From assembly GCA_049644265.1 (NCBI GenBank), contig JBARRO010000005.1, forward strand, positions 36,576 through 100,575: DNA of 64,000 bases, read 5' to 3'. The notes under the pieces were generated by a model that saw only the letters and a list, made by a program, of their open reading frames with translations, was not told the origin of the DNA and made no database searches. The stretch is from Bacteroidota bacterium. GTDB taxonomy: Bacteria; Bacteroidota; Ignavibacteria; UBA10030. The translations under genes were made by a program, and so were the position numbers. This document shows, piece after piece, positions 1,479-64,000 of the stretch (position 1 is the first letter of the stretch; the number at the start of each line of letters is the position of its first letter).

Positions 1479-1705
1479 TTGGACCTTCAATATTGATTCG
1501 GCGTATAGTACTAAACTCAGTGCGCAAAAACAATCACCACGCTTTATCTCTCTCGGCGTTCTCCGCCCGCCAGAGCAAGAACAGTGAGATTTTTCTTGCT
1601 TCTTAACGCCCGAAGCTTAAATTCACAGACAAGCACTCCCCTTCTATCCCTCTCCCCTGCTCCCCTGCTTCATTCCAAATCCCCCTCTGTCTTATCAGTT
1701 TGCAT

Positions 1706-3185: not shown

Positions 3186-3235
3186 TGGCCCGCTGAAGAA
3201 TTTGCCCACGGAAACACAGAAGAAGCGGAAGGAGT

Positions 3236-3296
3236 CCACACGCGTCTTTCTTTTCCGTGTGTTTCGCGTGTTTCGTGGTCTCTTGTTTTTGGCGCG
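3236..3296. repeat. Intergenic heptamer-armed repeat element, family copy A
   Basis: ccgtgtgtttcgcgtgtttcgtgg tandem YTTYGTG units, with a complementary cacacgcg segment upstream. Confidence 0.45.
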
Positions 3297-7910: not shown

Positions 7911-7929
7911 GTGGAAGCATTACGCAGAG

Positions 7930-8155
7930 ATAACGGAGAAGAACAGAGGACTCGCAGAAAAGAAGCGTTTTTTTGGTTAGTTACTTTAGAAAACAAAAAA
8001 ACGTGACCTCTGTGTTCACCGCGGCTTCTGTGAAATGCTCCCGGAGAGTGCAGAGAAAAGAACCATCCTACAATCTCCTGGTCCTAAACCTCTGTGATCT
8101 CTGCTGTTCCCTGTGTCCTCTGTGAAATGCTTTTAAACCGGAATAGTCGTATCTT
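7930..8155. repeat. Intergenic heptamer-armed repeat element, family copy B (composite)
   Basis: The left arm is cacagag-type, in reverse-complement orientation (gcagagataacggagaagaacagaggactcgcagaaaag). Then comes an A-run (aaaacaaaaaaacg). The right arms are cctctgtgttcac...cttctgtgaaatgc and cctctgtgatctctgctgttccctgtgtcctctgtgaaatgc. Confidence 0.5.
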
Positions 8156-8197
8156 TTTGCGGTAGGTTTTCCAAGAAAAGACCGAAAGGGCAATCTC

Positions 8198-9914: not shown

Positions 9915-9917
9915 ACA

Positions 9918-10060
9918 GAAAACATTGCACAGAGGTCACAGAGAAAAGCAGAGCTCACAGAGGAAGAATTGGATAAAGTAGCCAAAAAAAATCAAACGCC
10001 TTAAACCTCCGTGTTCTCTTCTTTGTGATCTCTGTGCAAGTAAAGACAGAAGCCAAACCT
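9918..10060. repeat. Intergenic heptamer-armed repeat element, family copy C
   Basis: The left arm is gcacagaggtcacagagaaaagcagagctcacagagg. Then comes the A-run gccaaaaaaaatcaaacgccttaaa. The right arm is cctccgtgttctcttctttgtgatctctgtgcaag. Confidence 0.5.
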
Positions 10061-10069
10061 CTCGCCGCC

Positions 10070-11902: not shown

Positions 11903-11964
11903 TTAATTACTAAACCGCGCGGGAGGATAGGATAAAAGGGGATTATCGGGGAGGAAGGTAACAA

Positions 11965-12010
11965 TAACAAAGCGCTAAACTCTTCGTGTCCTTAGTGTGC
12001 TTCGTGGTAG
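11965..12010. repeat. Intergenic heptamer repeat element, family copy E (single arm)
   Basis: aacaataacaaagcgctaaactcttcgtgtccttagtgtgcttcgtggtagtgag. Confidence 0.4.
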
Positions 12011-12032
12011 TGAGCCCATCATAGGAGTTTTT

Positions 12033-12070
12033 TGGAAAAAAAGAAAGCGGCCCCGGTTTCCCGGAGCCGC
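12033..12070 (-). terminator. Rho-independent terminator of the KMEKK-repeat gene
   Basis: The minus strand reads ggcggctccgggaaaccggggccgc, a GC-rich hairpin, followed by tttcttttttt. Confidence 0.6.
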
Positions 12071-12108
12071 CTTGTCTAAGAACTTCAGAAGACGACTTAC
12101 CTCTTGTC

Positions 12109-12414
12109 TTACTTCTTCTCCATCTTCTCCTCAGCCTTCTTCTGCATCGCCTCGCCCTTCTTCTGCATCGCCTCGCCCTTCTTCTCCATTTTCTTTCCCT
12201 TCTTCTGCATCTTCTTTCCCTTCTTTTCCATCTTCTTTCCTTCCATCTTGTCGGCCTTCTTCTCCATCTTCTCGCCAGCCTTCTCCATCTTCTCACCCTT
12301 CATTTCCTTCTTCTCACCCTTCTTCTCCACCTTTTCCTGCTTCTCCTGGGCAAAGCCTGTCTGCGCCGCGAGAACTGCAACCGCGAGCGTCAAAACGATG
12401 AATAATTTCCGCAT
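12109..12414 (-). CDS. Secreted low-complexity Lys/Glu/Met-rich repeat protein with KMEKKGE-type tandem repeats
   Basis: ATG 12414 is preceded by GGAGGA. The signal peptide MRKLFIVLTLAVAVLAAQTGFAQE is followed by about 10 repeats of (K/E)KMEKKGE. The DNA carries the exact tandem 21-mer ttcttctgcatcgcctcgccc, twice. Confidence 0.55.
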   Translation of the reverse strand: MRKLFIVLTLAVAVLAAQTGFAQEKQEKVEKKGEKKEMKGEKMEKAGEKMEKKADKMEGKKMEKKGKKMQKKGKKMEKKGEAMQKKGEAMQKKAEEKMEKK

Positions 12415-13748: not shown

Positions 13749-13881
13749 GAGGGATCTGGCGGTCAGCTTTCAGCAGTCAGCGATCAATAGTGGAGTGGAG
13801 TGGAGTACCAGATTCAACGTGCAACGGGGGAACGGAGCATCGGAGCAATCGCGCCTCACTCCTCCAACTCCCTCCACAAAC

Positions 13882-15744
13882 CTACACCTCCACAACCTCT
13901 GCTTTCTTCTTCGACATTCTGTTCCGCTCGTTGTGGTCGAGATACTTCTTCCGCAGTCGAATAGTTTTCGGCGTCACTTCGACGTATTCATCATCGCCGA
14001 TCCATTCAATCGCCTGCTCGAGCGTCAACAAGTGCGGGGGTTCAAGCCGTACTGCTTCATCGGAGCCGGAAGCGCGCATATTGGTCAGCTGTTTTGTTTT
14101 GCAGACATTGACCACCATGTCGTACTCACGGGAGTTTTCGCCAACGATCATTCCAGCGTACACATGCATTCCGGGCTCAATAAAAAATGTCGAGCGTTCC
14201 TGGAGTTTCCACATCCCGTAGGCAACGGATTCCCCGTTCTCGAGCACAACCAGTGCTCCCTTCATCCGATGAGCCAGGTCGCCTTTATAGGGTTCGTAGC
14301 CATGGAAGTTGTGGTGGAGAACTCCCGTTCCTTTTGTCTGCGTCATGAACTCGCCACGAAATCCGATGAGGCCACGCGCCGGGACGAGGAACTCAACCCT
14401 CGTGTTCCCCAACGACTGAATCATGTTCCGCATTTCCCCTTTTCGGCGACCGAGGTTTTCAATGACAGAGCCAACGTATTCGTCCGGTACGTCTATGATG
14501 ACATGTTCGATCGGCTCGGAGAGCACATCGGCGATTCGTTTGTAGATCACCTCGGGGCGGGAGACCTGGAATTCGTATCCTTCGCGGCGCATCGTTTCGA
14601 TAAGGATGGCCAGATGAAGCTCTCCGCGCCCGCTGACTCTGAAAATGTCGGGAGAGTCTGTTAATTCAACGCGGAGGGCCACATTCGACCGCAGTTCGCG
14701 TTGCAGCCGCTCGCCCAGGTGCCGCGTCGTCACGTATTTGCCGTCCAGTCCGGCAAACGGTGAATTATTGACGATAAAATTCATCGAGAGCGTTGGCTCC
14801 TCGATGGAAACAAAGTGAATTGCCGTGGGGTCGGATGCGTCAGCGATGGTCTCGCCGATGTCGACGTCTTCCATGCCGGCTATCGCGATAATATCCCCCG
14901 CATGGGCTTCCGTGACTTCAACGCGTTTCAGTCCCTCAAAAGAATAGATCTTCGTCACCCGGGCGTCTTCAACCGTTTTGTCCCGGTGAATAATCTTCAT
15001 CGGGGAGCCGAGCCGGATGGTGCCACGAAAGATTCGTCCGATCCCGAGACGGCCCAGGTAGTCGCTGTAGTCAATGGTGGTGACGAGCATTTGAAAGGGT
15101 GCCGTGGCATCCCCCGGAGGAGGCGGGACTTTATGGATAATCGCCTCAAACAGAGGTTCGAGGGAATTACTCTCCTGATCCAACTCGCGCTTCGCGATAC
15201 CCTGCTTGGCGATGGAATAAATGATCGGAAAATCCAGTTGATGGTCGTGGGCGCCGAGGGAAAGAAAGAGCTCGAACACCTCATCGAGGACTTCATGAGC
15301 CCGTGCGTCTTTTCGGTCAATCTTGTTGATGACGACGATCGGCTGCAGATTCAGCTCAAGAGATTTCTTGAGAACGAATTTCGTTCCCGGGAGAGGGCCT
15401 TCGGCAGCGTCGACAAGCAACAGCACGCCGTCGACCATCATCAGGGTGCGCTCAACCTCCCCGGCAAAATCCGAGTGGCCGGGAGTGTCGACGATGTTGA
15501 TCTTGTACGTTCGTTTTTCCTTGTCGGATTTGTAGAACACCGAGGTGTTCTTTGCCAGGATCGTTATTCCACGTTCCTTCTCCAGCTCATTCGAATCCAT
15601 GACACGAGTCCCCATGTCCTGGTTCGCACGGAACGTGCCGGTTTGCCGGAGCATAAAATCCACCAGCGTCGTCTTCCCGTGGTCGACGTGCGCAATTATG
15701 GCTATATTCCGAATATCTTCTCTCCGCTCCACCATACTATTCAT
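13882..15744 (-). CDS. typA: Translational GTPase TypA/BipA
   Basis: G1 motif AHVDHGKTTL with EF-G-like domains. The start is placed at ATG 15744 (MNSMVERREDIRNIAIIAHVDHGKT); the track start 15894 adds an unlikely 50-aa extension. Confidence 0.9.
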   Translation of the reverse strand: MNSMVERREDIRNIAIIAHVDHGKTTLVDFMLRQTGTFRANQDMGTRVMDSNELEKERGITILAKNTSVFYKSDKEKRTYKINIVDTPGHSDFAGEVERTLMMVDGVLLLVDAAEGPLPGTKFVLKKSLELNLQPIVVINKIDRKDARAHEVLDEVFELFLSLGAHDHQLDFPIIYSIAKQGIAKRELDQESNSLEPLFEAIIHKVPPPPGDATAPFQMLVTTIDYSDYLGRLGIGRIFRGTIRLGSPMKIIHRDKTVEDARVTKIYSFEGLKRVEVTEAHAGDIIAIAGMEDVDIGETIADASDPTAIHFVSIEEPTLSMNFIVNNSPFAGLDGKYVTTRHLGERLQRELRSNVALRVELTDSPDIFRVSGRGELHLAILIETMRREGYEFQVSRPEVIYKRIADVLSEPIEHVIIDVPDEYVGSVIENLGRRKGEMRNMIQSLGNTRVEFLVPARGLIGFRGEFMTQTKGTGVLHHNFHGYEPYKGDLAHRMKGALVVLENGESVAYGMWKLQERSTFFIEPGMHVYAGMIVGENSREYDMVVNVCKTKQLTNMRASGSDEAVRLEPPHLLTLEQAIEWIGDDEYVEVTPKTIRLRKKYLDHNERNRMSKKKAEVVEV

Positions 15745-15902
15745 CCTGCCAATCCTGTCCGCTTGTAACCCGGTTTGTGACTCACCTTCTCTCCTTCTCG
15801 CACGCTCATCATTCCCATAAGTCGCATCCGTGTAAATTTGTGCGTATCCGTGGGTATCTGCGAAAAAAGAAAATGCCTCAGATTCCTGAGGCATTTATAA
15901 GA

Positions 15903-15993
15903 TACGAAATCTTGGGCTAAAAACAAAGAGGACCGCGGAACACACAGAACACACGGAAGAAAGTTTTCTACAACCTCTTCCGCATCTTTCCGT
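15903..15993. repeat. Intergenic heptamer-armed repeat element, family copy D
   Basis: ggaacacacagaacacacggaagaaag as the complementary arm, and cctcttccgcatctttccgtgtgtttcgtgggc as the right arm. Confidence 0.45.
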
Positions 15994-16029
15994 GTGTTTC
16001 GTGGGCATTTCCATTCCGCAGACAAACAA

Positions 16030-25364: not shown

Positions 25365-25495
25365 CACCTCAAAAACAGTCTGCCACAAAAAGCACAAAAT
25401 GCGCCAAAGGGATTGTTTGGCACATTAACCAGGCCGACTTTTTGTGGCTTTTGTGCTTTCTTGTGGCCATATTTTTTTGAGATAGCCTGATCTCG
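25365..25495. repeat. Intergenic heptamer-armed inverted-repeat element, family copy I
   Basis: The left arm gccacaaaaagcacaaaatgcgcc is complementary to the right arm ttttgtggcttttgtgctttcttgtggcc. This could also serve as a terminator for yceI. Confidence 0.5.
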
Positions 25496-36561: not shown

Positions 36562-36576
36562 GGGGGGGGGTAGCAA

Positions 36577-36717
36577 TGGGTAGTTAGTTTTGGAGAAAAT
36601 CGGTTTTGAGTTTCTGGTTTCTAGTTTCTAGAATTCCTCAAAACTTCAAAACGAAGCTCTAAACCCGAAACCTTAAACTCGAAACCCGAAACTTCAAACT
36701 CGAAACTGCTTATCGTC
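36577..36717. repeat. Intergenic heptamer-armed element, GTTTC-unit variant (copy J)
   Basis: The left arm is gtttctggtttctagtttctag. The right arm is the complement type: cgaaaccttaaactcgaaacccgaaacttcaaactcgaaac. Confidence 0.45.
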
Positions 36718-43543: not shown

Positions 43544-43589
43544 TTTTTCCTTGGAGAGGCTCTCGGAATCTTTCCTGGTAACTCTGGGC

Positions 43590-43665
43590 GGGATTCTGGG
43601 AGTCTTTCACTTTATTTCTTCGTGTTCTTCGTGCCCTTCGTGGTTGATAATCCCTTCGTTGTTTA
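43590..43665. repeat. Intergenic heptamer repeat element, family copy F, inside the ABC operon
   Basis: cactttatttcttcgtgttcttcgtgcccttcgtggttgataatcccttcgttg. Confidence 0.45.
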
Positions 43666-44415: not shown

Positions 44416-44424
44416 TTCTTCCTT

Positions 44425-44560
44425 ATGAGAGACCTTCCTTGAGTGTCCTTCGTGGTCCCCTGGAAAGACTCCCGGAATCTCACCGAGAATTACCGAGAAA
44501 GGTTCCGGGGGTCTCTCTTAGTGCCCTTGGTGTCCTTCGTGGTTCGTGGCTTCATCCGCG
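44425..44560. repeat. Intergenic heptamer repeat element, family copy G, inside the ABC operon
   Basis: cttgagtgtccttcgtggtcccc … cttagtgcccttggtgtccttcgtggttcgtggc. The central segment resembles copy F. Confidence 0.45.
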
Positions 44561-45496: not shown

Positions 45497-45544
45497 GGTT
45501 CTGCGTTGGATTGATCGGGTGATGGAACAATTACACGGAGGTCA

Positions 45545-45735
45545 CAGATCTTCCTGCCGGTCTACGACTCGTAGAGTTTACCCGCCGTGTTGTGTGGCGG
45601 GCAGGCAGGGAAAAGATGAGAAGACAGAGGTTTAAGACCTCGTATTTTTTGGAGTTTGGGAAAAGCCCCCTCTCAATCTTTTCTCTGTGAGTTACGCTCT
45701 TCTCAGTGTCCTCTGTGAATCTCTCTAAAAAGTGC
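45545..45735. repeat. Intergenic heptamer-armed repeat element, family copy H
   Basis: gagaagacagaggtttaagacctc as the complementary arm, and ctctcaatcttttctctgtgagttacgctcttctcagtgtcctctgtgaatctctc as the right arm. Confidence 0.45.
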
Positions 45736-45897
45736 TCCAAGTTTAATGAAAAGAAAAAATTATGTCAAGGGTTCCGCTGTTCAGAGTGTCTAAGACGGAT
45801 AGAGAGTTCAAAATGTTCCCGGGTTAAGAAACAAAATCGTTGTCTCTGGACAAGACAAACGATAGAGAAGGGATAAAAGGGGAGGATTGCGAGATAA

Positions 45898-59530: not shown

Positions 59531-59633
59531 TGGTTATTCGAGCTCAAGCCGTACCAACTTGAGAGAGCATCGGATCTTCGATGCTCCTGTCGAAAATCTT
59601 TTCCCCTGCTCCCCCGCACCCCTGCACCCCCTC

Positions 59634-60965: not shown

Positions 60966-61094
60966 TGGGGGAGTGTTGAGTATTGACTATTGAGTTGTGA
61001 GTAATTGGTGAGTGGTTGGTTGGCTAATTGGCTAATTAACGACTTTCCCGCTTCTACCTTTTGACTCCTGAATTCTGAATTCTGACTCCTGCTC
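60966..61094. repeat. Intergenic tandem-short-unit element between actB and actC, variant copy K
   Basis: gagtattgactattgagttgtgagtaattggtgagtggttggttggctaattggctaatt … tgactcctgaattctgaattctgactcctgctcctagctcct. Confidence 0.4.
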
Positions 61095-64000
61095 CTAGCT
61101 CCTAATCTCCTTCAAATACACCACCGCCGGTTGCGTGTTCAGCTCTTCGAGCACGCGATAGTCTCTTGGTTTGTGCTTCTCTCTGAGTTTGTTGGCTTTG
61201 CTTTCAGGATCCTTAAGATCGCCAAAGACAATTGCCTGACTGGGACAGGCCTGCTGGCATGCGGTGACGATCTCTCCGTCCATGATGGCTCTGCCTTCCA
61301 CCCTTGCGTTGTTCTTCGCTTCGACAATCCGCTGGACGCAGAATGTGCACTTCTCCATGACACCCTTGGTTCGCACTGTCACGTCCGGATTCAACTGCCA
61401 GTTGAGCGGTTCGGGAAATTCGTAATCAAACCAATTGAACCGGCGAACTTTGTACGGACAGTTGTTCGCACAGTACCGTGTGCCGACACATCGGTTGTAG
61501 ACCTGGGCGTTGAGTCCCTCCGGCGTATGGTAAGAGGCATACACAGGGCAGACCGTTTCGCATGGAGCGTTGTCACAATGCTGACAAAGCATGGGAAGGA
61601 ATTCGGCGTTCGGCGAGTACGGCGCTGTGGAATCCGCCGGGGGATCGTCGAAGAAACGCTCGATGCGCAGCCAGGAAAGCTCTCGGCCGATCTCCACTTG
61701 CTTCTTCCCGACGACCGGGATGTTGTTCTCCGAATAACACGCGGTCACGCAAGCGCTGCACCCCGTGCACCTGTCGAGATCGATCGTCATTCCCCATCTG
61801 TGTAGCGGATGTTCATGCGGTTCATACAAGGACGGCGCTCCGGGGCTGCCGGGTTGCTCTTCGGCAACCGGATGCCTTCCCTCCGCAAGCTCTTTTGTCT
61901 GACGGAGGAGCTCTTCCACAGTCACGACCTGAACGATGTTCCGGCCGTGGAGGTAATCACTGCCGGCAACATCGGCAAATTGAATTCGTTGCCCGCGATT
62001 CACAAGGGCAACCGGGATTCCGGACCACTGCAACGCTCCCGACGACGCCAGTGGATTCGGAGGGAGCAGGGTATACGCATTCGCACCCTGACCTTTTGCG
62101 TAACGGCCGTATTCGGTGTGACCTTGGCCGACGGGAATCGCAACCGCGCCCGGCCGGACGCCAGCGTAGACATACGCAGGGAGATCCAGAGTTCCGTACT
62201 TCGTTGTCAGCCGGAGAATATCTCCGCGTTTTACTCCAAGCTTCTCCGCATCCTGCGGATGAATTTCAACCCAACTGTCCCACGTAATCATCGTCATGGG
62301 GTCCGGTACTTCCTGAAGCCACGGCTTGTTCGCGCCCCTGCCGTCGTAATGATTCAAGGACGGATACGTGAGAAGGAGAAAATCTGCCGCCGTTTTTTGC
62401 CGCTCGAATTCGTTCATCATCGGTTTCAGGTCGGCCGACGAACTCGCCCATCGCAGTCGCGGATTGCTTCCGGCTTCTTCTCTGAAAATTCCTCCGTTTG
62501 CAAGCGCCTCCATCCACCATGTCTCAAAATCCTGACGCGAGCCGATGGCTCGCTGTACCGTCCGCCATCGAACACGTACGTACTCATAGAATGGCTGACT
62601 GAGTTTCGAGAAGTTAGTCTTTCCCAAAATCTTTTCGTTGAGGAGAAGAATTTCATCCCCCAACATTCTGGTCGTTTTGAACACTGGCTGCATGACAGGC
62701 TGCATGAAGCCGAAGATTCCTTCAGCCGGCTCATAATCCCCCCAACTTTCGAGGGGTGTGTGGACCGGCAGCACGATTTGTGCGCGAGCGGCGGTCTCAT
62801 CCATAAAGGACGAGAATGCAACGGTAAGCGGAATCTTCTCCATCGCTTCGGAGAAATTCGCACCCGGAGGAGCAGAAAAAACTGGATTTGTCTCGGTGAA
62901 GAAGAGTGCGCCAATCTCACCCTGATGCGCGGATCGAACAAGGCGAAGCAGGTCCGCGTAGCCGTTCAAAGAGGAAAGCGACAAGGGTCGGTCGACTCTG
63001 ACTGTCTTGCCGATATTGCCGCAGACAAAGTTCAAAAGATTGACCGCTGTAAGCGTTGCCACCTCGGTCTCGCTTCCGAGCATCGGTCCGCCTCCTATTG
63101 CGAGGCCGGGTGATGCTTCGGCGAATTCTTTTGCAAGCGACCGTATCCGGTCGGGACTGACTCCGGTGATTTGCGAGACCTTCCGCGGAGCGAGGCCCTG
63201 GATCATTCTCAGAATCTCATTGGATTCCGCGAGCCCGAGTCCGGTTGCCATTCCGTTGGTGAGAATCACGTTCACCAAACCCAGAGCGAGGGCTCCCTCG
63301 GTCCCGGGAATCGGTGCAATCCATTCATCCGCGTTCGTCGCCGTCATGGAGAGCCGCGGACCGATGTACACGTACGGATGGACGCTCTTGCCGTCGAATT
63401 CACGCATCGCAGCAAATTCTCGCGCCTGCCCGACAGGGGAGAGCCATGTCTCGAGGAAGTCCGCTCCAAACGAGAGAATGAACTTCGCCGATGCGAAATC
63501 ATAGGTCGGAATAACTGCCCGGCCAAACGCAATTTCGTTCGCTTTCTTCAGGGCTTCGTAAGCGATCGGTTCGTATCGAACCCTGCGTTTCGACCCGACA
63601 GCTTTCAGGAAGTCGTCGACGACAGCATCGAGAGAGCCTGTGAGGTGGGGAGTAAGCCATGCGACCGAATTGCTCTTTCCCTGCTTGTCGAGCGCTTTGA
63701 GATGACCGAGAATGTGTTCTTCGGCTTGTTGCCACGTCAGCTGTTCCCACGAACCATCGGCTTTCTTTCGCAAAGGATGCTGAATGCGATCCGGGTTATA
63801 CAAGCCCTGTAGCGATGCCTGACCCCGGGAGCAGAGCGTTCCACGGTTCACAGGATGAAGCGGGTTCCCTTCGACCTTTACCGCCCGACCCTCCCGCACC
63901 CGAACATGAATTCCACACCCGGCTGGACACTCCCTGCACACGCTCGCATACCACGCCGCTTTCCCCGGAATTATTTCTTCGTGCGGAATGATGTACGGAA
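61095..64000 (-). CDS. Alternative complex III subunit ActB, a fusion of a molybdopterin-oxidoreductase-like domain with 4Fe-4S ferredoxin domains; 5' end beyond the window
   Basis: The N-terminal Fe-S motif CRECPAGCG…C leads into a large molybdopterin-oxidoreductase-like domain. The C-terminus carries 4Fe-4S ferredoxin motifs (CTGCSACVTAC, CQHCDNAPCETVCP, CVGTRYCANNCP). The frame is open to position 64000. Confidence 0.75.
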   Translation of the reverse strand, partial: PYIIPHEEIIPGKAAWYASVCRECPAGCGIHVRVREGRAVKVEGNPLHPVNRGTLCSRGQASLQGLYNPDRIQHPLRKKADGSWEQLTWQQAEEHILGHLKALDKQGKSNSVAWLTPHLTGSLDAVVDDFLKAVGSKRRVRYEPIAYEALKKANEIAFGRAVIPTYDFASAKFILSFGADFLETWLSPVGQAREFAAMREFDGKSVHPYVYIGPRLSMTATNADEWIAPIPGTEGALALGLVNVILTNGMATGLGLAESNEILRMIQGLAPRKVSQITGVSPDRIRSLAKEFAEASPGLAIGGGPMLGSETEVATLTAVNLLNFVCGNIGKTVRVDRPLSLSSLNGYADLLRLVRSAHQGEIGALFFTETNPVFSAPPGANFSEAMEKIPLTVAFSSFMDETAARAQIVLPVHTPLESWGDYEPAEGIFGFMQPVMQPVFKTTRMLGDEILLLNEKILGKTNFSKLSQPFYEYVRVRWRTVQRAIGSRQDFETWWMEALANGGIFREEAGSNPRLRWASSSADLKPMMNEFERQKTAADFLLLTYPSLNHYDGRGANKPWLQEVPDPMTMITWDSWVEIHPQDAEKLGVKRGDILRLTTKYGTLDLPAYVYAGVRPGAVAIPVGQGHTEYGRYAKGQGANAYTLLPPNPLASSGALQWSGIPVALVNRGQRIQFADVAGSDYLHGRNIVQVVTVEELLRQTKELAEGRHPVAEEQPGSPGAPSLYEPHEHPLHRWGMTIDLDRCTGCSACVTACYSENNIPVVGKKQVEIGRELSWLRIERFFDDPPADSTAPYSPNAEFLPMLCQHCDNAPCETVCPVYASYHTPEGLNAQVYNRCVGTRYCANNCPYKVRRFNWFDYEFPEPLNWQLNPDVTVRTKGVMEKCTFCVQRIVEAKNNARVEGRAIMDGEIVTACQQACPSQAIVFGDLKDPESKANKLREKHKPRDYRVLEELNTQPAVVYLKEIRS

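What the first reader, a model, noticed from the sequence alone, without database searches (positions are those of the whole stretch)
7930..8155. Genome-specific family of intergenic elements built from tandem heptamers in inverted arms (YTYYGTG / CACRRAR)
Coding sequence does not explain this family. At least 11 intergenic sites share one architecture:
- a left arm of 2-4 tandem units of the CACAGAG/CACACGG type
- often an A-run plus CGCCTTAAAC-like linker
- a right arm of 2-4 tandem complementary units, for example CCTCTGTGA, TTTCCGTGTGTTTCGTGG, CTTCGTGCCCTTCGTGG

The copies lie at roughly 3236-3296, 7930-8155, 9918-10060, 11965-12010, 15903-15993, 25365-25495, 43590-43665, 44425-44560 and 45545-45735. 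GTTTC-type variants lie at 36577-36717 and 60966-61094.

The copies sit at gene ends, and also between genes inside operons, for example between the ABC permease, ATPase and GldG genes and between actB and actC. This resembles REP/BIME-like or MITE-like dispersed elements, but with an unusual tandem-heptamer composition.
Basis: seen in the sequence. Interest (0 to 1): 0.55.

Follow-up and report, generated by a model that had tools for sequence, protein, structure and literature searches.

The report
Dispersed fold-back repeats made of nonamer arrays
The flagged intergenic sequences are real copies of a repeat family made of two inverted arrays of about 9-base units (core CACAGAG / CTCTGTG), and the same element, noted once in Geobacter and never explained, occurs in bacteria from Bacteroides to Gemmatimonadota.

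Summary
The motif YTYYGTG/CACRRAR is about 5-fold enriched in intergenic DNA: 40 hits against 7.8±2.7 in shuffles. Intergenic regions align to each other better than shuffled controls. Six or seven sites fold into long hairpins (z -4 to -7).

Corrections:
- The unit period is 9 nt, not 7.
- The sites split into several subfamilies.
- Some sites are single arrays, not hairpins.
- The family is not genome-specific.

Most hits lie in tandem CACAGAG-unit arrays, and at least a third have an inverted partner array. The same hairpin occurs in Bacteroides ovatus and B. finegoldii, Gemmatirosa, Pseudoalteromonas and a Nitrospiraceae MAG. G. metallireducens "class 2 paired sites" (TCTCCGTS[Y] x3, Aklujkar 2009) have the same unit.

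The elements sit 0-30 nt after stop codons, in tandem and convergent spacers, and rarely in divergent ones. They have no target-site duplications and no GTAG/CGTC tags. Close relatives lack them at the same positions.

Whole copies, loops included, recur in both orientations in the window and in Gemmatirosa.

Best reading: a REP/REPIN-like repeat mobilised in trans that forms hairpins at mRNA 3' ends. The mobilising or binding factor is unknown.

The parts
7914..8041 (.). Element E2 (subfamily A), full length. Left arm 7916-7958, loop 7959-7995, right arm 7996-8040. It starts 4 nt after the stop codon of the LonC-like gene.
   Evidence: Arms found by arm HMM. RNAfold -40.6 kcal/mol, z -4.4 (+) / -5.3 (-). 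Homologous over its whole length to E4 in the opposite orientation.
8041..8135 (.). Element E3 (subfamily A). Degenerate left arm 8038-8067, well-conserved right arm 8081-8131 ending in CCTCTGTGAAATGCT. It lies 63 nt upstream of the next gene's ATG.
   Evidence: Arm HMM gives 42.6 bits for the right arm and 11.1 bits for the left. Best inter-IGR BLAST hit is to E4 (52.6 bits). Weak fold, z -1.4.
9921..10042 (.). Element E4 (subfamily A), the cleanest copy. Left arm 9922-9964, loop with TAAAGTAGCC..A8..AAACGCC, right arm 9999-10041. It lies between the convergent TrkA-channel and glycosyltransferase genes.
   Evidence: z -6.7/-5.2. TRF period 9. Arm alignment. An 8-nt AGACAGAA lies at symmetric offsets on both sides. 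No other copy has such a flank repeat.
45527..45730 (.). Element E7 (subfamily A) with a long interior. Short left arm 45527-45548, right arm 45677-45722. It lies in the divergent spacer upstream of the ABC ATPase gene.
   Evidence: Arm HMM. z -3.9/-4.8. Relative L081 carries a family copy upstream of its own orthologous ATPase gene.
3203..3282 (+). Element E1 (subfamily C, units CACGGAA/CACAGAA and TTCCGTG/GTTTCGTG), followed by TCTCTTGTTTTT. It starts 18 nt after the stop codon of the C39 peptidase gene.
   Evidence: Shares a 15-nt exact stretch and the T-run with E5. Weak fold, z -1.5.
15928..16008 (-). Element E5 (subfamily C), followed on the - strand by TCCTCTTTGTTTTT. It lies between a canonical terminator (16061-16028) and the conserved bipA leader hairpin (15896-15871).
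   Evidence: z -5.4/-5.9. The T-run and the leader are conserved in relative L203, which has a short G+C-rich stretch, read by eye as an ordinary terminator stem, where E5 lies.
25380..25470 (.). Element E6 (units CACAAAA / TTTTGTG), followed by CATATTTTTTTT. It lies between the convergent YceI and cation-efflux genes.
   Evidence: z -4.7/-4.9. TRF period 9.
43544..43662 (-). E8 (subfamily B). A single array of three CTTCGTG nonamers (43616-43642, + strand) plus a GGAATC/GATTCC hairpin. It fills the spacer between the ABC permease and GldG genes.
   Evidence: TRF period 9. 43-bit match to E9. It folds only on the antisense (+) strand. The same spacer is 13 nt in L081 and 1 nt in the closest relative.
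44416..44551 (-). E9 (subfamily B). Two direct copies of GTGTCCTTCGTGG (44443-44455 and 44530-44542) flank a G+C-rich hairpin shared with E8. It fills the spacer between the ABC ATPase and permease genes.
   Evidence: The same spacer is 14 nt in L081.
11965..12010 (-). E10 (subfamily B). A single array (CTTCGTG, CTTAGTG, CTTCGTGG on the + strand), downstream of a canonical terminator and about 60 nt upstream of the glycosyltransferase start codon.
   Evidence: 31-33-bit matches to E8 and E9. No hairpin, z +1.7/-0.4.
36595..36710 (.). V1. A fold-back made of true heptamers (AGTTTCT x3, then CGAAACT/CGAAACC x8). It lies between the SurA and MoxR genes.
   Evidence: TRF period 7. z -4.8/-4.6. The same spacer is 33 nt in L081 and 112 nt without repeats in L203.
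60966..61094 (.). V2. Several heptamer and octamer arrays (GAGTATT, TTGGCTAA, CTGAATT, CTCCTAG) that are not complementary to each other. The stretch CTCCTGA ATTCTGA ATTCTGA fits the Geobacter class 3 unit MTYCTGA. It lies between actB and actC.
   Evidence: TRF. It folds only on the antisense (+) strand, z -3.5 against -0.8. The class 3 consensus is taken from PMC2700814.
13785..13881 (.). V3. A pentamer array AGTGG x3.6 paired with CTCACTCCTCCAACTCCCTCCAC, directly after the bipA stop codon.
   Evidence: TRF period 5. z -3.2/-2.0.

Best explanation
The sites are copies of a non-autonomous, dispersed repeat class. I call it paired nonamer arrays, or miniature fold-back elements.

Anatomy:
- Each arm is 2-5 direct repeats of a unit of about 9 nt, with a 7-8 nt core (CACAGAGG and variants CACGGAG, CACGAAG, CACAAAA) and 1-2 free bases.
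- The second arm is the same array inverted.
- The purine-rich CAC array is almost always 5' of the GTG array (43 of 49 partnered cases).
- The loop is 4-150 nt.

What the data show or strongly indicate:
- Copies spread as whole units, in either orientation, into spacers just downstream of stop codons.
- They leave no target-site duplication.
- They turn over fast between close relatives.

What I infer about spread: an enzyme supplied in trans recognises the repeated core units or the folded single strand, by analogy with REP/REPIN elements and their RAYT transposases. That enzyme has not been identified.

What I infer about their effect once in place:
- The transcript carries a long hairpin, interrupted about every 9 nt by a mismatch, right after the upstream cistron.
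- This hairpin would block 3'-5' exonucleases or serve as a processing site.
- Where a T-run follows (3203-3282, 15928-16008, 25380-25470), it would act as the stem of an intrinsic terminator.
For: A real, intergenic, hairpin-forming family:
- Motif enrichment, alignment between intergenic regions and fold z-scores.
- The arms of subfamily A are homologous over about 45 nt.

Dispersal as units:
- E4(+) and E2(-) align through arms and loop.
- In Gemmatirosa, three copies within 9 kb of a composite of about 170 nt have sharp boundaries, and one copy is inverted.

Recent gain:
- Orthologous spacers are 14, 13 and 33 nt in L081 against 136, 119 and 141 nt here.
- The lon|next-gene spacer is 48 nt in L203 against 287 nt here.
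- Spacer lengths differ even in the closest relative: 82, 1 and 118 nt.

Orientation and position:
- The arms are arranged CAC-array then GTG-array in 43 cases against 6 for the reverse order (binomial p = 6e-8).
- Contexts in metagenome contigs: 10 tandem, 9 convergent, 1 divergent, with hairpins usually 1-30 nt after a stop codon.
- In the Geobacter class 2 list (first 13 pairs read), sites are 3'/5' or 3'/3' and never 5'/5'.

Absence of transposon hallmarks:
- No target-site duplication.

Pairing extends beyond the family consensus:
- Outer flanks are complementary beyond what the consensus gives: 0.5-0.67 with the element's own partner against 0.27-0.36 with other elements' partners.
- The outer stem extends by >=3 nt in 20 of 46 hairpins.

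Terminator role:
- E5 lies where relative L203 has a short G+C-rich stretch that I read by eye as an ordinary terminator stem. The T-run is conserved.

REP-like behaviour in Geobacter:
- IS110-family insertions lie at a fixed distance from the related class 1 sites (PMC2700814). From my own knowledge, IS110-family elements also target REP sequences.
Against: - No mobilising enzyme was found. The Pfam scans of the window ORFs listed no transposase-like family.
- Best identity between copies in the window is only 63-87%, so no recent burst is visible in these 64 kb.
- The variable base between units is not complementary between the arms: 0.27 with the own partner against 0.34 with others. The strongest constraint is therefore on each unit's own sequence, as expected for a binding site, and not on pairing.
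- There is no excess of G.U pairs or of stability on the sense strand. G.U pairs number 51 sense against 45 antisense, and the sense strand is more stable in 11 cases against 8. An RNA-level role is therefore not shown.
- Most hairpins have no T-run.
- Some sites are single arrays (E8, E10, and the Nostoc copy).
- The near-identical core across phyla is unusual for REP families, which normally differ between species.
Confidence: 0.5

Rival explanations
1. The arrays are binding sites for a sequence-specific protein, such as a nucleoid-associated protein or global regulator (as Aklujkar et al. guessed: IHF/HU) or an RNA-binding protein. Each 9-nt unit would be one site, three units would bind cooperatively, and the inverted pair would give two-fold symmetry. 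The hairpin potential would be a by-product.
For: - The cores stay the same across contigs of 34-72% G+C, and even in a 72% G+C genome.
- The spacer base is free and not complementary between the arms.
- The phase is a strict 9 nt.
- Three units per arm is the commonest count.
- Single arrays exist.
- There is no strand bias for RNA pairing.
- Prior proposal in PMC2700814.
Against: - The sites avoid divergent (promoter) spacers and sit after stop codons.
- Many core variants coexist in one genome (CACAGAG, CACGAAG, CACAAAA, CGCAGAG, CACGAAT). In each element both arms carry the same variant. This would need many proteins, or else pairing is what matters.
- Outer flanks outside the units are complementary.
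- Arm distance varies from 4 to 150 nt.
- Occurrence is patchy. The 73-nt consensus hairpin matches none of 5,426 E. coli genomes. [quoted passage not shown] Relatives with 77-89% identical flanking proteins have few or none. This argues against a universal host factor.
- I considered DnaA boxes and rejected them. The outer 9-mer is typically NNNACCACA, whereas the TTWTNCACA consensus (from my own knowledge) requires T at position 4.
Confidence: 0.25
2. The elements grow in place and are not mobile. Replication slippage would multiply short units inside existing hairpins such as terminators, and quasi-palindrome (template-switch) correction would copy changes to the other arm. Similar units at different sites would then be convergent.
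For: - Short tandem arrays of many unrelated units (periods 5-9) are concentrated in the intergenic DNA of this window.
- The number of units varies between copies.
- E5 lies where a relative appears to have an ordinary terminator stem.
- Heptamer-type repeats are known to be slippage-prone (Mrazek 2007, as cited in PMC4679880).
Against: - Whole-element homology, including loops and linkers, holds between distant sites and in both orientations.
- The same core recurs in several phyla.
- Units within one arm differ in their spacer bases, so they are not recent tandem duplicates.
- Template-switch correction would make the spacer bases complementary, and they are not.
Confidence: 0.12
3. They are classical MITEs, that is, deletion derivatives of a DDE transposon whose terminal inverted repeats contain sub-terminal transposase-binding repeats.
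For: - Inverted ends built of repeated short motifs, a size of 60-200 bp, and insertion in both orientations.
- One copy (E4) has an 8-nt AGACAGAA at symmetric offsets on both sides.
Against: - There is no target-site duplication beyond chance in 46 hairpins.
- No array pairs lie 0.5-3 kb apart around an ORF in about 0.6 Mb of element-rich contigs.
- Nine-nucleotide units are short for the transposase sites I know of.
Confidence: 0.05
4. They are genes for, or parts of, structured regulatory RNAs: small RNAs, riboswitch-like leaders or protein sponges.
For: - Strong fold z-scores.
- E5 lies between two terminator-like hairpins.
- Four window elements fold slightly better on the sense strand.
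Against: - No Rfam family matches. Only generic long-hairpin miRNA models score, far below their thresholds.
- Both strands fold equally well overall.
- Positions are not conserved between relatives.
- The elements occur in every kind of gene context.
Confidence: 0.05

Closest known systems
Geobacter metallireducens 'class 2 putative global regulator binding sites' (Gmet_I2xx; Aklujkar et al. 2009, BMC Microbiol 9:109, PMC2700814), with sister classes 1 (GTTGCTYN x4), 3 (MTYCTGA x5) and 4 (CCYTC)
   Same: - The unit is TCTCCGTS[Y], the complement of CACGGAGA, repeated three times per site.
- Sites come in pairs on opposite strands at variable distance and were drawn as fold-backs.
- They are intergenic and include spacers inside operons. 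Contexts are 3'/5' or 3'/3'.
- Several unit classes coexist in one genome and can be combined in one site.
- The window also holds a class 3-like array, CTCCTGA ATTCTGA ATTCTGA, at about 61060-61085.
   Different: - The class was described in one genome only, as presumed IHF/HU sites, with no experiment and no name.
- The commonest core here is CACAGAG, not CACGGAG.
- The arms of subfamily A are longer (about 45 nt, four units) and carry a conserved RCATT end.
- I could not read the Geobacter alignments themselves. A supplement search for CTCCGTG/CACGGAG found nothing, so the comparison rests on the published consensus.
REP / BIME / REPIN elements with RAYT (Y1 HUH) transposases
   Same: - Extragenic, palindromic and multi-copy.
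- Found at the 3' ends of genes and inside operons, and rare in divergent spacers.
- Inverted doublets with a fixed head-to-head orientation.
- No target-site duplication.
- Lineage-specific abundance.
- Mosaic combination of modules.
- Targeted by IS110-family elements: in Geobacter for class 1, and for REP from my own knowledge.
   Different: - There is no GTAG or CGTC tag (2 and 0 of 52 hairpins).
- The arms are arrays of 9-nt units and not a single 20-40 bp palindrome.
- The core sequence is shared across phyla.
- No RAYT gene is known or was found.
Intergenic heptamer direct repeats: TAACTGA repeats of Beggiatoaceae, Cyanobacteria and Bacteroidetes (MacGregor 2015, PMC4679880), and the cyanobacterial STRR heptamers and 'long simple sequence repeats' of Mrazek 2007 as I recall them
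   Same: - Short units repeated head to tail in intergenic DNA.
- Patchy distribution across phyla.
- Relatives with the same gene order have shorter spacers without repeats.
- V1 and V2 in the window are true heptamer arrays.
   Different: - Those are mostly perfect, direct-only arrays, often just upstream of start codons.
- The main family here has a 9-nt period and imperfect units, comes in inverted pairs, and sits just after stop codons.
Intrinsic (Rho-independent) terminators
   Same: A hairpin immediately downstream of a gene. E1, E5 and E6 are followed by T-runs. E5 takes the place of what looks like a terminator stem in a relative.
   Different: Most copies, here and elsewhere, have no T-run. 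Stems are 25-45 nt with regular mismatches. Several copies lie inside operons.
Eukaryotic fold-back (FB) transposons, from my own knowledge
   Same: Long inverted arms that are themselves built of short tandem sub-repeats, with a variable middle.
   Different: A different domain of life and a far larger size. This is only an architectural analogy.

Membership tests
G. metallireducens class 2 paired tandem-repeat sites | About three tandem repeats of an 8-9 nt unit with consensus TCTCCGTS[Y] | tested here: met
   Units are CTCYGTG plus 1-2 nt, with a period of 9 nt (113/142) or 8 nt (22/142) and 2-4 units per arm. CTCCGTG variants are present in the window (10007, 45540) and in the Bacteroides and Gemmatirosa copies.
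G. metallireducens class 2 paired tandem-repeat sites | Sites occur as pairs on opposite strands at variable distance | tested here: met
   Arms are inverted, with loops of 4-150 nt. Some single arrays also occur, as in Geobacter, where one "possibly vestigial unpaired site" was noted.
G. metallireducens class 2 paired tandem-repeat sites | Intergenic, in 3'/5' or 3'/3' contexts including spacers inside operons | tested here: met
   Window: 9 tandem, 2 convergent and 1 divergent spacer. Metagenome contigs: 10, 9 and 1.
REP / REPIN (RAYT-associated) | Conserved GTAG or CGTC tetranucleotide at one end of the palindrome (Di Nocera 2013, PMC3733652) | tested here: not met
   GTAG/CTAC lies within 12 nt outside 2 of 52 hairpins, where chance gives about 3.5. 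CGTC lies outside 0 of 52. The usual outer bases are AC or GC before CAC.
REP / REPIN (RAYT-associated) | The unit is a single 20-40 bp imperfect palindrome | tested here: not met
   A single arm is a direct array of 9-nt units and cannot fold on its own. Only the pair of arms folds.
REP / REPIN (RAYT-associated) | A cognate RAYT (Y1 transposase) gene in the genome, often flanked by REPs | not testable with these tools
   Only 64 kb of the genome is available. The Pfam scans of the window ORFs listed no transposase-like family, and whole genomes could not be scanned.
REP / REPIN (RAYT-associated) | Extragenic, multi-copy, no target-site duplication, inverted doublets in a fixed orientation | tested here: met
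   (43 against 6 in orientation).
MITE (DDE-transposon derived) | Target-site duplication flanking the terminal inverted repeats | tested here: not met
   Direct repeats of 2-8 nt next to the maximal palindrome are at chance level in 46 hairpins. The Gemmatirosa copies have none.
MITE (DDE-transposon derived) | An autonomous element with the same ends around a transposase gene | tested here: inconclusive
   No convincing array pairs 0.5-3 kb apart were found in about 0.6 Mb of fetched contigs. These are short contigs, not whole genomes.
Intrinsic terminator | A stable hairpin directly followed by a U-rich tract | tested here: inconclusive
   Met for E1, E5 and E6. Not met for E2-E4, E7-E9, V1-V3 or for 21 related hairpins examined.
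Any Rfam RNA family | A match at the family's gathering score | tested here: not met
   No hits at gathering thresholds on the whole window. In E-value mode, only miRNA-precursor and similar models scored, far below their thresholds.

The most novel reading that the evidence does not exclude
The paired nonamer arrays form a third, untagged superfamily of prokaryotic extragenic repeats with its own machinery, which has not been identified. In this reading, a horizontally spreading trans-acting enzyme or binding protein reads the repeated CACAGAGG-type units. That would explain why the same core appears in Bacteroides, Ignavibacteriota, Gemmatimonadota, Desulfuromonadota (Geobacter), Nitrospirota and a gammaproteobacterial megaplasmid, while the 73-nt consensus hairpin found nothing in E. 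coli genomes and close relatives of the carriers have few or none. The near-exclusive CAC-then-GTG orientation and the regular unpaired base every 9 nt would be signatures of how that machinery makes or recognises the element.
Probability: 0.3. Interest if true: 0.75.

Novelty: new member of a known kind. Interest (0 to 1): 0.58.

Why it matters
- Repeats of this kind fill a large share of the intergenic DNA in this window, about a dozen spacers in 64 kb. They also sit inside operons for gliding-type ABC transport, alternative complex III and envelope chaperones, where a 25-45 bp hairpin is likely to affect mRNA decay, processing or read-through.
- In the searchable literature, the same element has been recorded only as unexplained "putative global regulator sites" in one Geobacter genome.
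- Finding it in genetically tractable gut Bacteroides, for example between gmd and fcl of B. ovatus, makes its function and its mobilising or binding factor directly testable.
- For genome annotation, recognising the class explains many over-long spacers and spurious small ORFs in MAGs of Ignavibacteriota, Gemmatimonadota and others.

Tried and rejected
- **Rfam.** The gathering search on the window and E-value searches on two regions returned only generic hairpin noise.
- **tRNA/tmRNA.** None found.
- **Exact-protein look-ups to get more of the source contig.** Three failed, probably because the start codons differ from the recorded gene calls.
- **DNA of the two closest relatives' contigs** (97% BipA, 90% permease). 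Not retrievable, so only gene spacings were used.
- **Target-site duplications.** Absent.
- **Autonomous partner element.** None seen.
- **GTAG/CGTC tags.** Absent.
- **RNA-level strand bias (G.U against A.C).** None overall. A 4-of-4 sense-strand preference for E1, E2, E5 and V1 is offset by E8, V2 and E9, which fold better on the antisense strand.
- **Covariation of the A/G core position between arms.** Weak: G/G in 3 cases against 1.25 expected (my arithmetic from the counts).
- **DnaA-box idea.** Rejected because position 4 is A or G, not T (with the consensus from my own knowledge).
- **CsrA (GGA) idea.** Rejected because many unit variants lack GGA.
- **Context of single arrays relative to start codons.** No clear pattern with naive ORF calls.
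- **Fixed 110-nt window z-scores.** These separate intergenic from coding DNA only weakly (p = 0.02), because the windows cut through elements.
- **Literature searches for the sequences themselves.** They found only unrelated eukaryotic primers.
- **Bacteroides transcriptome papers.** They do not mention these hairpins.
- **The intrastrand-triplex paper (PMC4666352).** It concerns a different G/C-rich motif.
Full report
**Source and gene map.** The window is part of a 101,731-bp NCBI MAG contig labelled "Bacteroidota bacterium"; its BipA protein is 100% identical to P0121. The nearest named relatives of its LonC-like protease are Ignavibacteriales/Ignavibacteriota MAGs at 69-75% identity. Pfam scans gave a gene map. 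It includes:
- LonC-like protease, TrkA channel, BipA and Mfd;
- a gldA/gldF/gldG-like ABC operon;
- SurA-type chaperones and MoxR;
- alternative complex III genes actB-F.

Intergenic DNA totals 6,080 nt, or 9.5% of the window.

**Check of the observation.**
- The degenerate heptamer YTYYGTG/CACRRAR occurs 40 times in intergenic DNA. Five hundred dinucleotide-preserving shuffles gave 7.8±2.7 (maximum 17). Its density is 6.6/kb intergenic against 1.17/kb in genes.
- All-against-all BLAST of intergenic regions gives top scores of 52.6 and 43.0 bits and 8 hits of at least 31.5 bits. The best score in 30 shuffled sets was 29.5. Twenty-two hits reach 22 bits, against 1-8 in shuffles.
- Folding gives strong z-scores on both strands for 7914-8041, 9921-10042, 15928-16008, 25380-25470, 45528-45730 and 36595-36710, between -3.9 and -6.7. 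It gives weak or no signal for 3203-3282, 8041-8135, 44430-44551 and 11950-12012.

**Anatomy and corrections.**
- TRF puts the period of the main arrays at 9 nt. The arrays at 36609-36707 and 60971-61104 have period 7 (8 at 61020-61037), and 13789-13806 has period 5.
- The sites fall into subfamilies:
  - A: 7911-8197, 9915-10069 and 45497-45897. Core CACAGAG, ends RCATT.
  - B: 43544-43662, 44416-44551 and 11965-12010. Core CACGAAG, plus a shared GGAATC hairpin.
  - C: 3203-3282(+) and 15928-16008(-). Both are followed by TCTCTTGTTTTT-like T-runs.
  - Singletons: 25380-25470, V1, V2 and V3.
- The eight subfamily-A arms from the window, together with one arm from relative L081, align over about 45 nt to RCATTnCACAGAGGnCACAGrGAArAGCAGAGnTCACAGAGG.
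- The flagged stretch 7930-8155 is two adjacent elements, E2 (7914-8041) and E3 (8041-8135).
- E4 on the + strand and E2 on the - strand are homologous through the arms and the loop (TAAAGTARC, an A-run, AAACGC), at 63% identity. The family therefore has a defined full-length form of about 125 nt that occurs in both orientations.

**Turnover between relatives.**
- In L081 (permease 77% identical) the syntenic ATPase|permease, permease|GldG and SurA|MoxR spacers are 14, 13 and 33 nt. Here they are 136, 119 and 141 nt.
- In L203 (BipA 89% identical) the lon|next-gene spacer is 48 nt against 287 nt here. None of its spacers holds such arrays.
- In the closest relative (BipA 97%, permease 90%; DNA not retrievable) the spacers are 82, 1 and 118 nt.
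- Yet L081 has a family copy upstream of its ATPase gene, sharing the 15-mer CCTGTGTCCTCTGTG with E3.
- Downstream of E5, the T-run and the bipA leader hairpin are conserved in L203. L203 has a short G+C-rich stretch, which I read by eye as an ordinary terminator stem, where E5 lies.

**The family is not genome-specific.**
- In most loci the match is part of a run of CACAGAG-type units. At least a third also carry the inverted array within 150 nt, giving the form (A/G)CCACAGAG-n-CACAGAGG-n-CACAGAGAA, loop, TTCTCTGTG-n-CCTCTGTG-n-CTCTGTGG(T/C). The contigs range from 34 to 72% G+C.
- A further unit lies 8-11 nt upstream in 49 of 126 hits, where chance gives about 0.2%.
- BLAST against plasmid records found the same hairpin in:
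  - Bacteroides ovatus, 11 nt after the gmd stop codon and 15 nt before fcl;
  - B. finegoldii, between the murF/alr fusion gene and tatA;
  - Gemmatirosa kalamazoonensis megaplasmids, 21 and 18 places at 72% G+C;
  - Pseudoalteromonas shioyasakiensis;
  - Nostoc, one arm only.
- The same 73-nt consensus hairpin matched none of 5,426 E. coli genomes and only two fragments among phage records.
- A Nitrospiraceae MAG (L069) has a period-7 version.

**Prior description.** Aklujkar et al. [quoted passage not shown] The pairs lie on opposite strands at variable distance.
- Class 1: GTTGCTYN x4.
- Class 2: TCTCCGTS[Y] x3, 21 pairs.
- Class 3: MTYCTGA x5.
- Class 4: CCYTC.

IS110-family insertions lie at a fixed distance from class 1 sites. 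The authors suggested IHF/HU binding and did no experiment. Class 2 has the same unit as the present family. V2 contains a class 3-like array. MacGregor 2015 (PMC4679880) describes the related phenomenon of intergenic TAACTGA heptamers. Searches for the sequences themselves, and the Bacteroides transcriptome papers, gave nothing.

**Properties of the wider class.**
- *Orientation.* The CAC array precedes the GTG array in 43 cases, and the reverse order occurs in 6 (p = 6e-8).
- *Context.* Ten tandem, 9 convergent and 1 divergent spacer. Hairpins usually lie 1-30 nt after the upstream stop codon and further from the next start codon. The Geobacter class 2 contexts agree.
- *No T-run* follows in general.
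- *No target-site duplication*.
- *No GTAG/CGTC tag*.
- *No pairs of arrays around an ORF*.
- *Period.* Nine nt in 113 of 142 spacings.
- *Units per arm.* Three is the commonest count.
- *Spacer base.* The free base between units is not complementary between the arms: 0.27 with the own partner against 0.34 with arms of other elements.
- *Outer flanks.* Bases outside the arrays are complementary: 0.5-0.67 against 0.27-0.36. The outer stem extends by at least 3 nt in 20 of 46 hairpins.
- *Strand bias.* There is no sense/antisense asymmetry in G.U pairs (51 against 45) or in stability.
- *Dispersal in Gemmatirosa.* Three copies within 9 kb of a composite of about 170 nt (outer CCGCAGAGGG arrays, asymmetric linkers, inner CACAGAGGA hairpin) have sharp boundaries. 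One copy is inverted. This is direct evidence for dispersal as a unit.

**Interpretation.**
- *Best supported.* A REP/REPIN-like class of non-autonomous fold-back repeats, mobilised in trans by an unknown factor. The copies are tolerated, and probably used, as 3'-end or intercistronic hairpins, and as terminator stems where a T-run follows.
- *Shown.* This is a real family. It is intergenic and has hairpin potential. Whole copies are homologous and occur in both orientations. Copies are gained and lost quickly between relatives. They carry no target-site duplication. They sit after stop codons, and the class occurs in several phyla.
- *Inferred.* The mode of transposition and any effect on RNA.
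- *Main rival.* The arrays are protein-binding sites. The strict conservation of cores, the free non-pairing spacer base and the 9-nt phase favour this. The position after stop codons, the many core variants that are matched between the arms of each element, the complementary flanks and the patchy distribution argue against it. The two views are compatible if the binder is the mobilising enzyme.
- *Less likely.* Growth in place by slippage, classical MITEs and small-RNA genes.

**Verdict.** The window holds new members of a widespread, barely described and functionally unexplained repeat class.

Noticed in passing
window 15871-15896 (- strand) and L203 9945-9990: A hairpin followed by a T-run (AAATGCCTCAGGAATCTGAGGCATTTTCTTTTTT) lies about 125 nt upstream of the true bipA start (ATG at 15744; the ORF list extends it to 15894). 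It is conserved in a relative with 89% identical BipA. It may be a leader attenuator of bipA/typA.
   Followed up: partly
window 12109-12414 (- strand), terminator 12044-12073: A small secreted-looking protein made of 21-nt (7-residue) tandem repeats rich in Lys and Glu (MEKKGEK-like), with a canonical terminator. The longer ORFs listed on both strands here (11943-12296 -, 11997-12401 +) are probably spurious.
   Followed up: partly
window 36562-36570: A G9 run (C9 on the coding strand) lies directly upstream of the likely ATG start of the MoxR gene (36561). It could be a slippage-prone tract or an assembly-prone homopolymer.
   Followed up: no
window 44443-44455 and 44530-44542: An exact 13-nt direct repeat, GTGTCCTTCGTGG, flanks a 74-nt segment. 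That segment holds a G+C-rich hairpin (GACTCCCGGAATC...) also present in the next spacer (43560-43605). It looks like a second kind of module nested in a nonamer array.
   Followed up: partly
window 43544-43662 and 60966-61094: In these two spacers inside operons, the sense (- strand) RNA is G-poor and essentially unstructured (z +0.3 and -0.8), while the antisense strand folds well. The sequence may serve as an open leader for the downstream cistron and not as a hairpin.
   Followed up: partly
L005 9420-9470: A relative's lon gene is followed by a different array: GTCAGGC ATCAGAA GTCAGAC GTCAGGC GTCAGAA ATCAGA. Its complement resembles the Geobacter class 3 unit MTYCTGA and the TAACTGA repeats.
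   Followed up: no
L205 (Gemmatirosa kalamazoonensis plasmid 1) 11420-11560, 14100-14285, 19950-20125: Composite nested elements. Outer arrays of CCGCAGAGGG units enclose linkers with GCAACT-like motifs (class 1-like) and an inner CACAGAGGA hairpin of about 50% G+C, in a 72% G+C replicon.
   Followed up: yes
L193 12346-12469 versus L108 449-512: Two metagenome contigs share the same outer arms and flank but have different loops. One loop carries an extra (GCAACT)3 / (AGTTGC)3 pair, so loops seem to acquire further repeat modules.
   Followed up: no
window 1636-1669 and 59603-59632: C-rich octamer arrays (CTCCCCTG, CCCCCGCA) lie in two further spacers and match each other (25.7 bits). This is another small repeat type in the same genome.
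   Followed up: no
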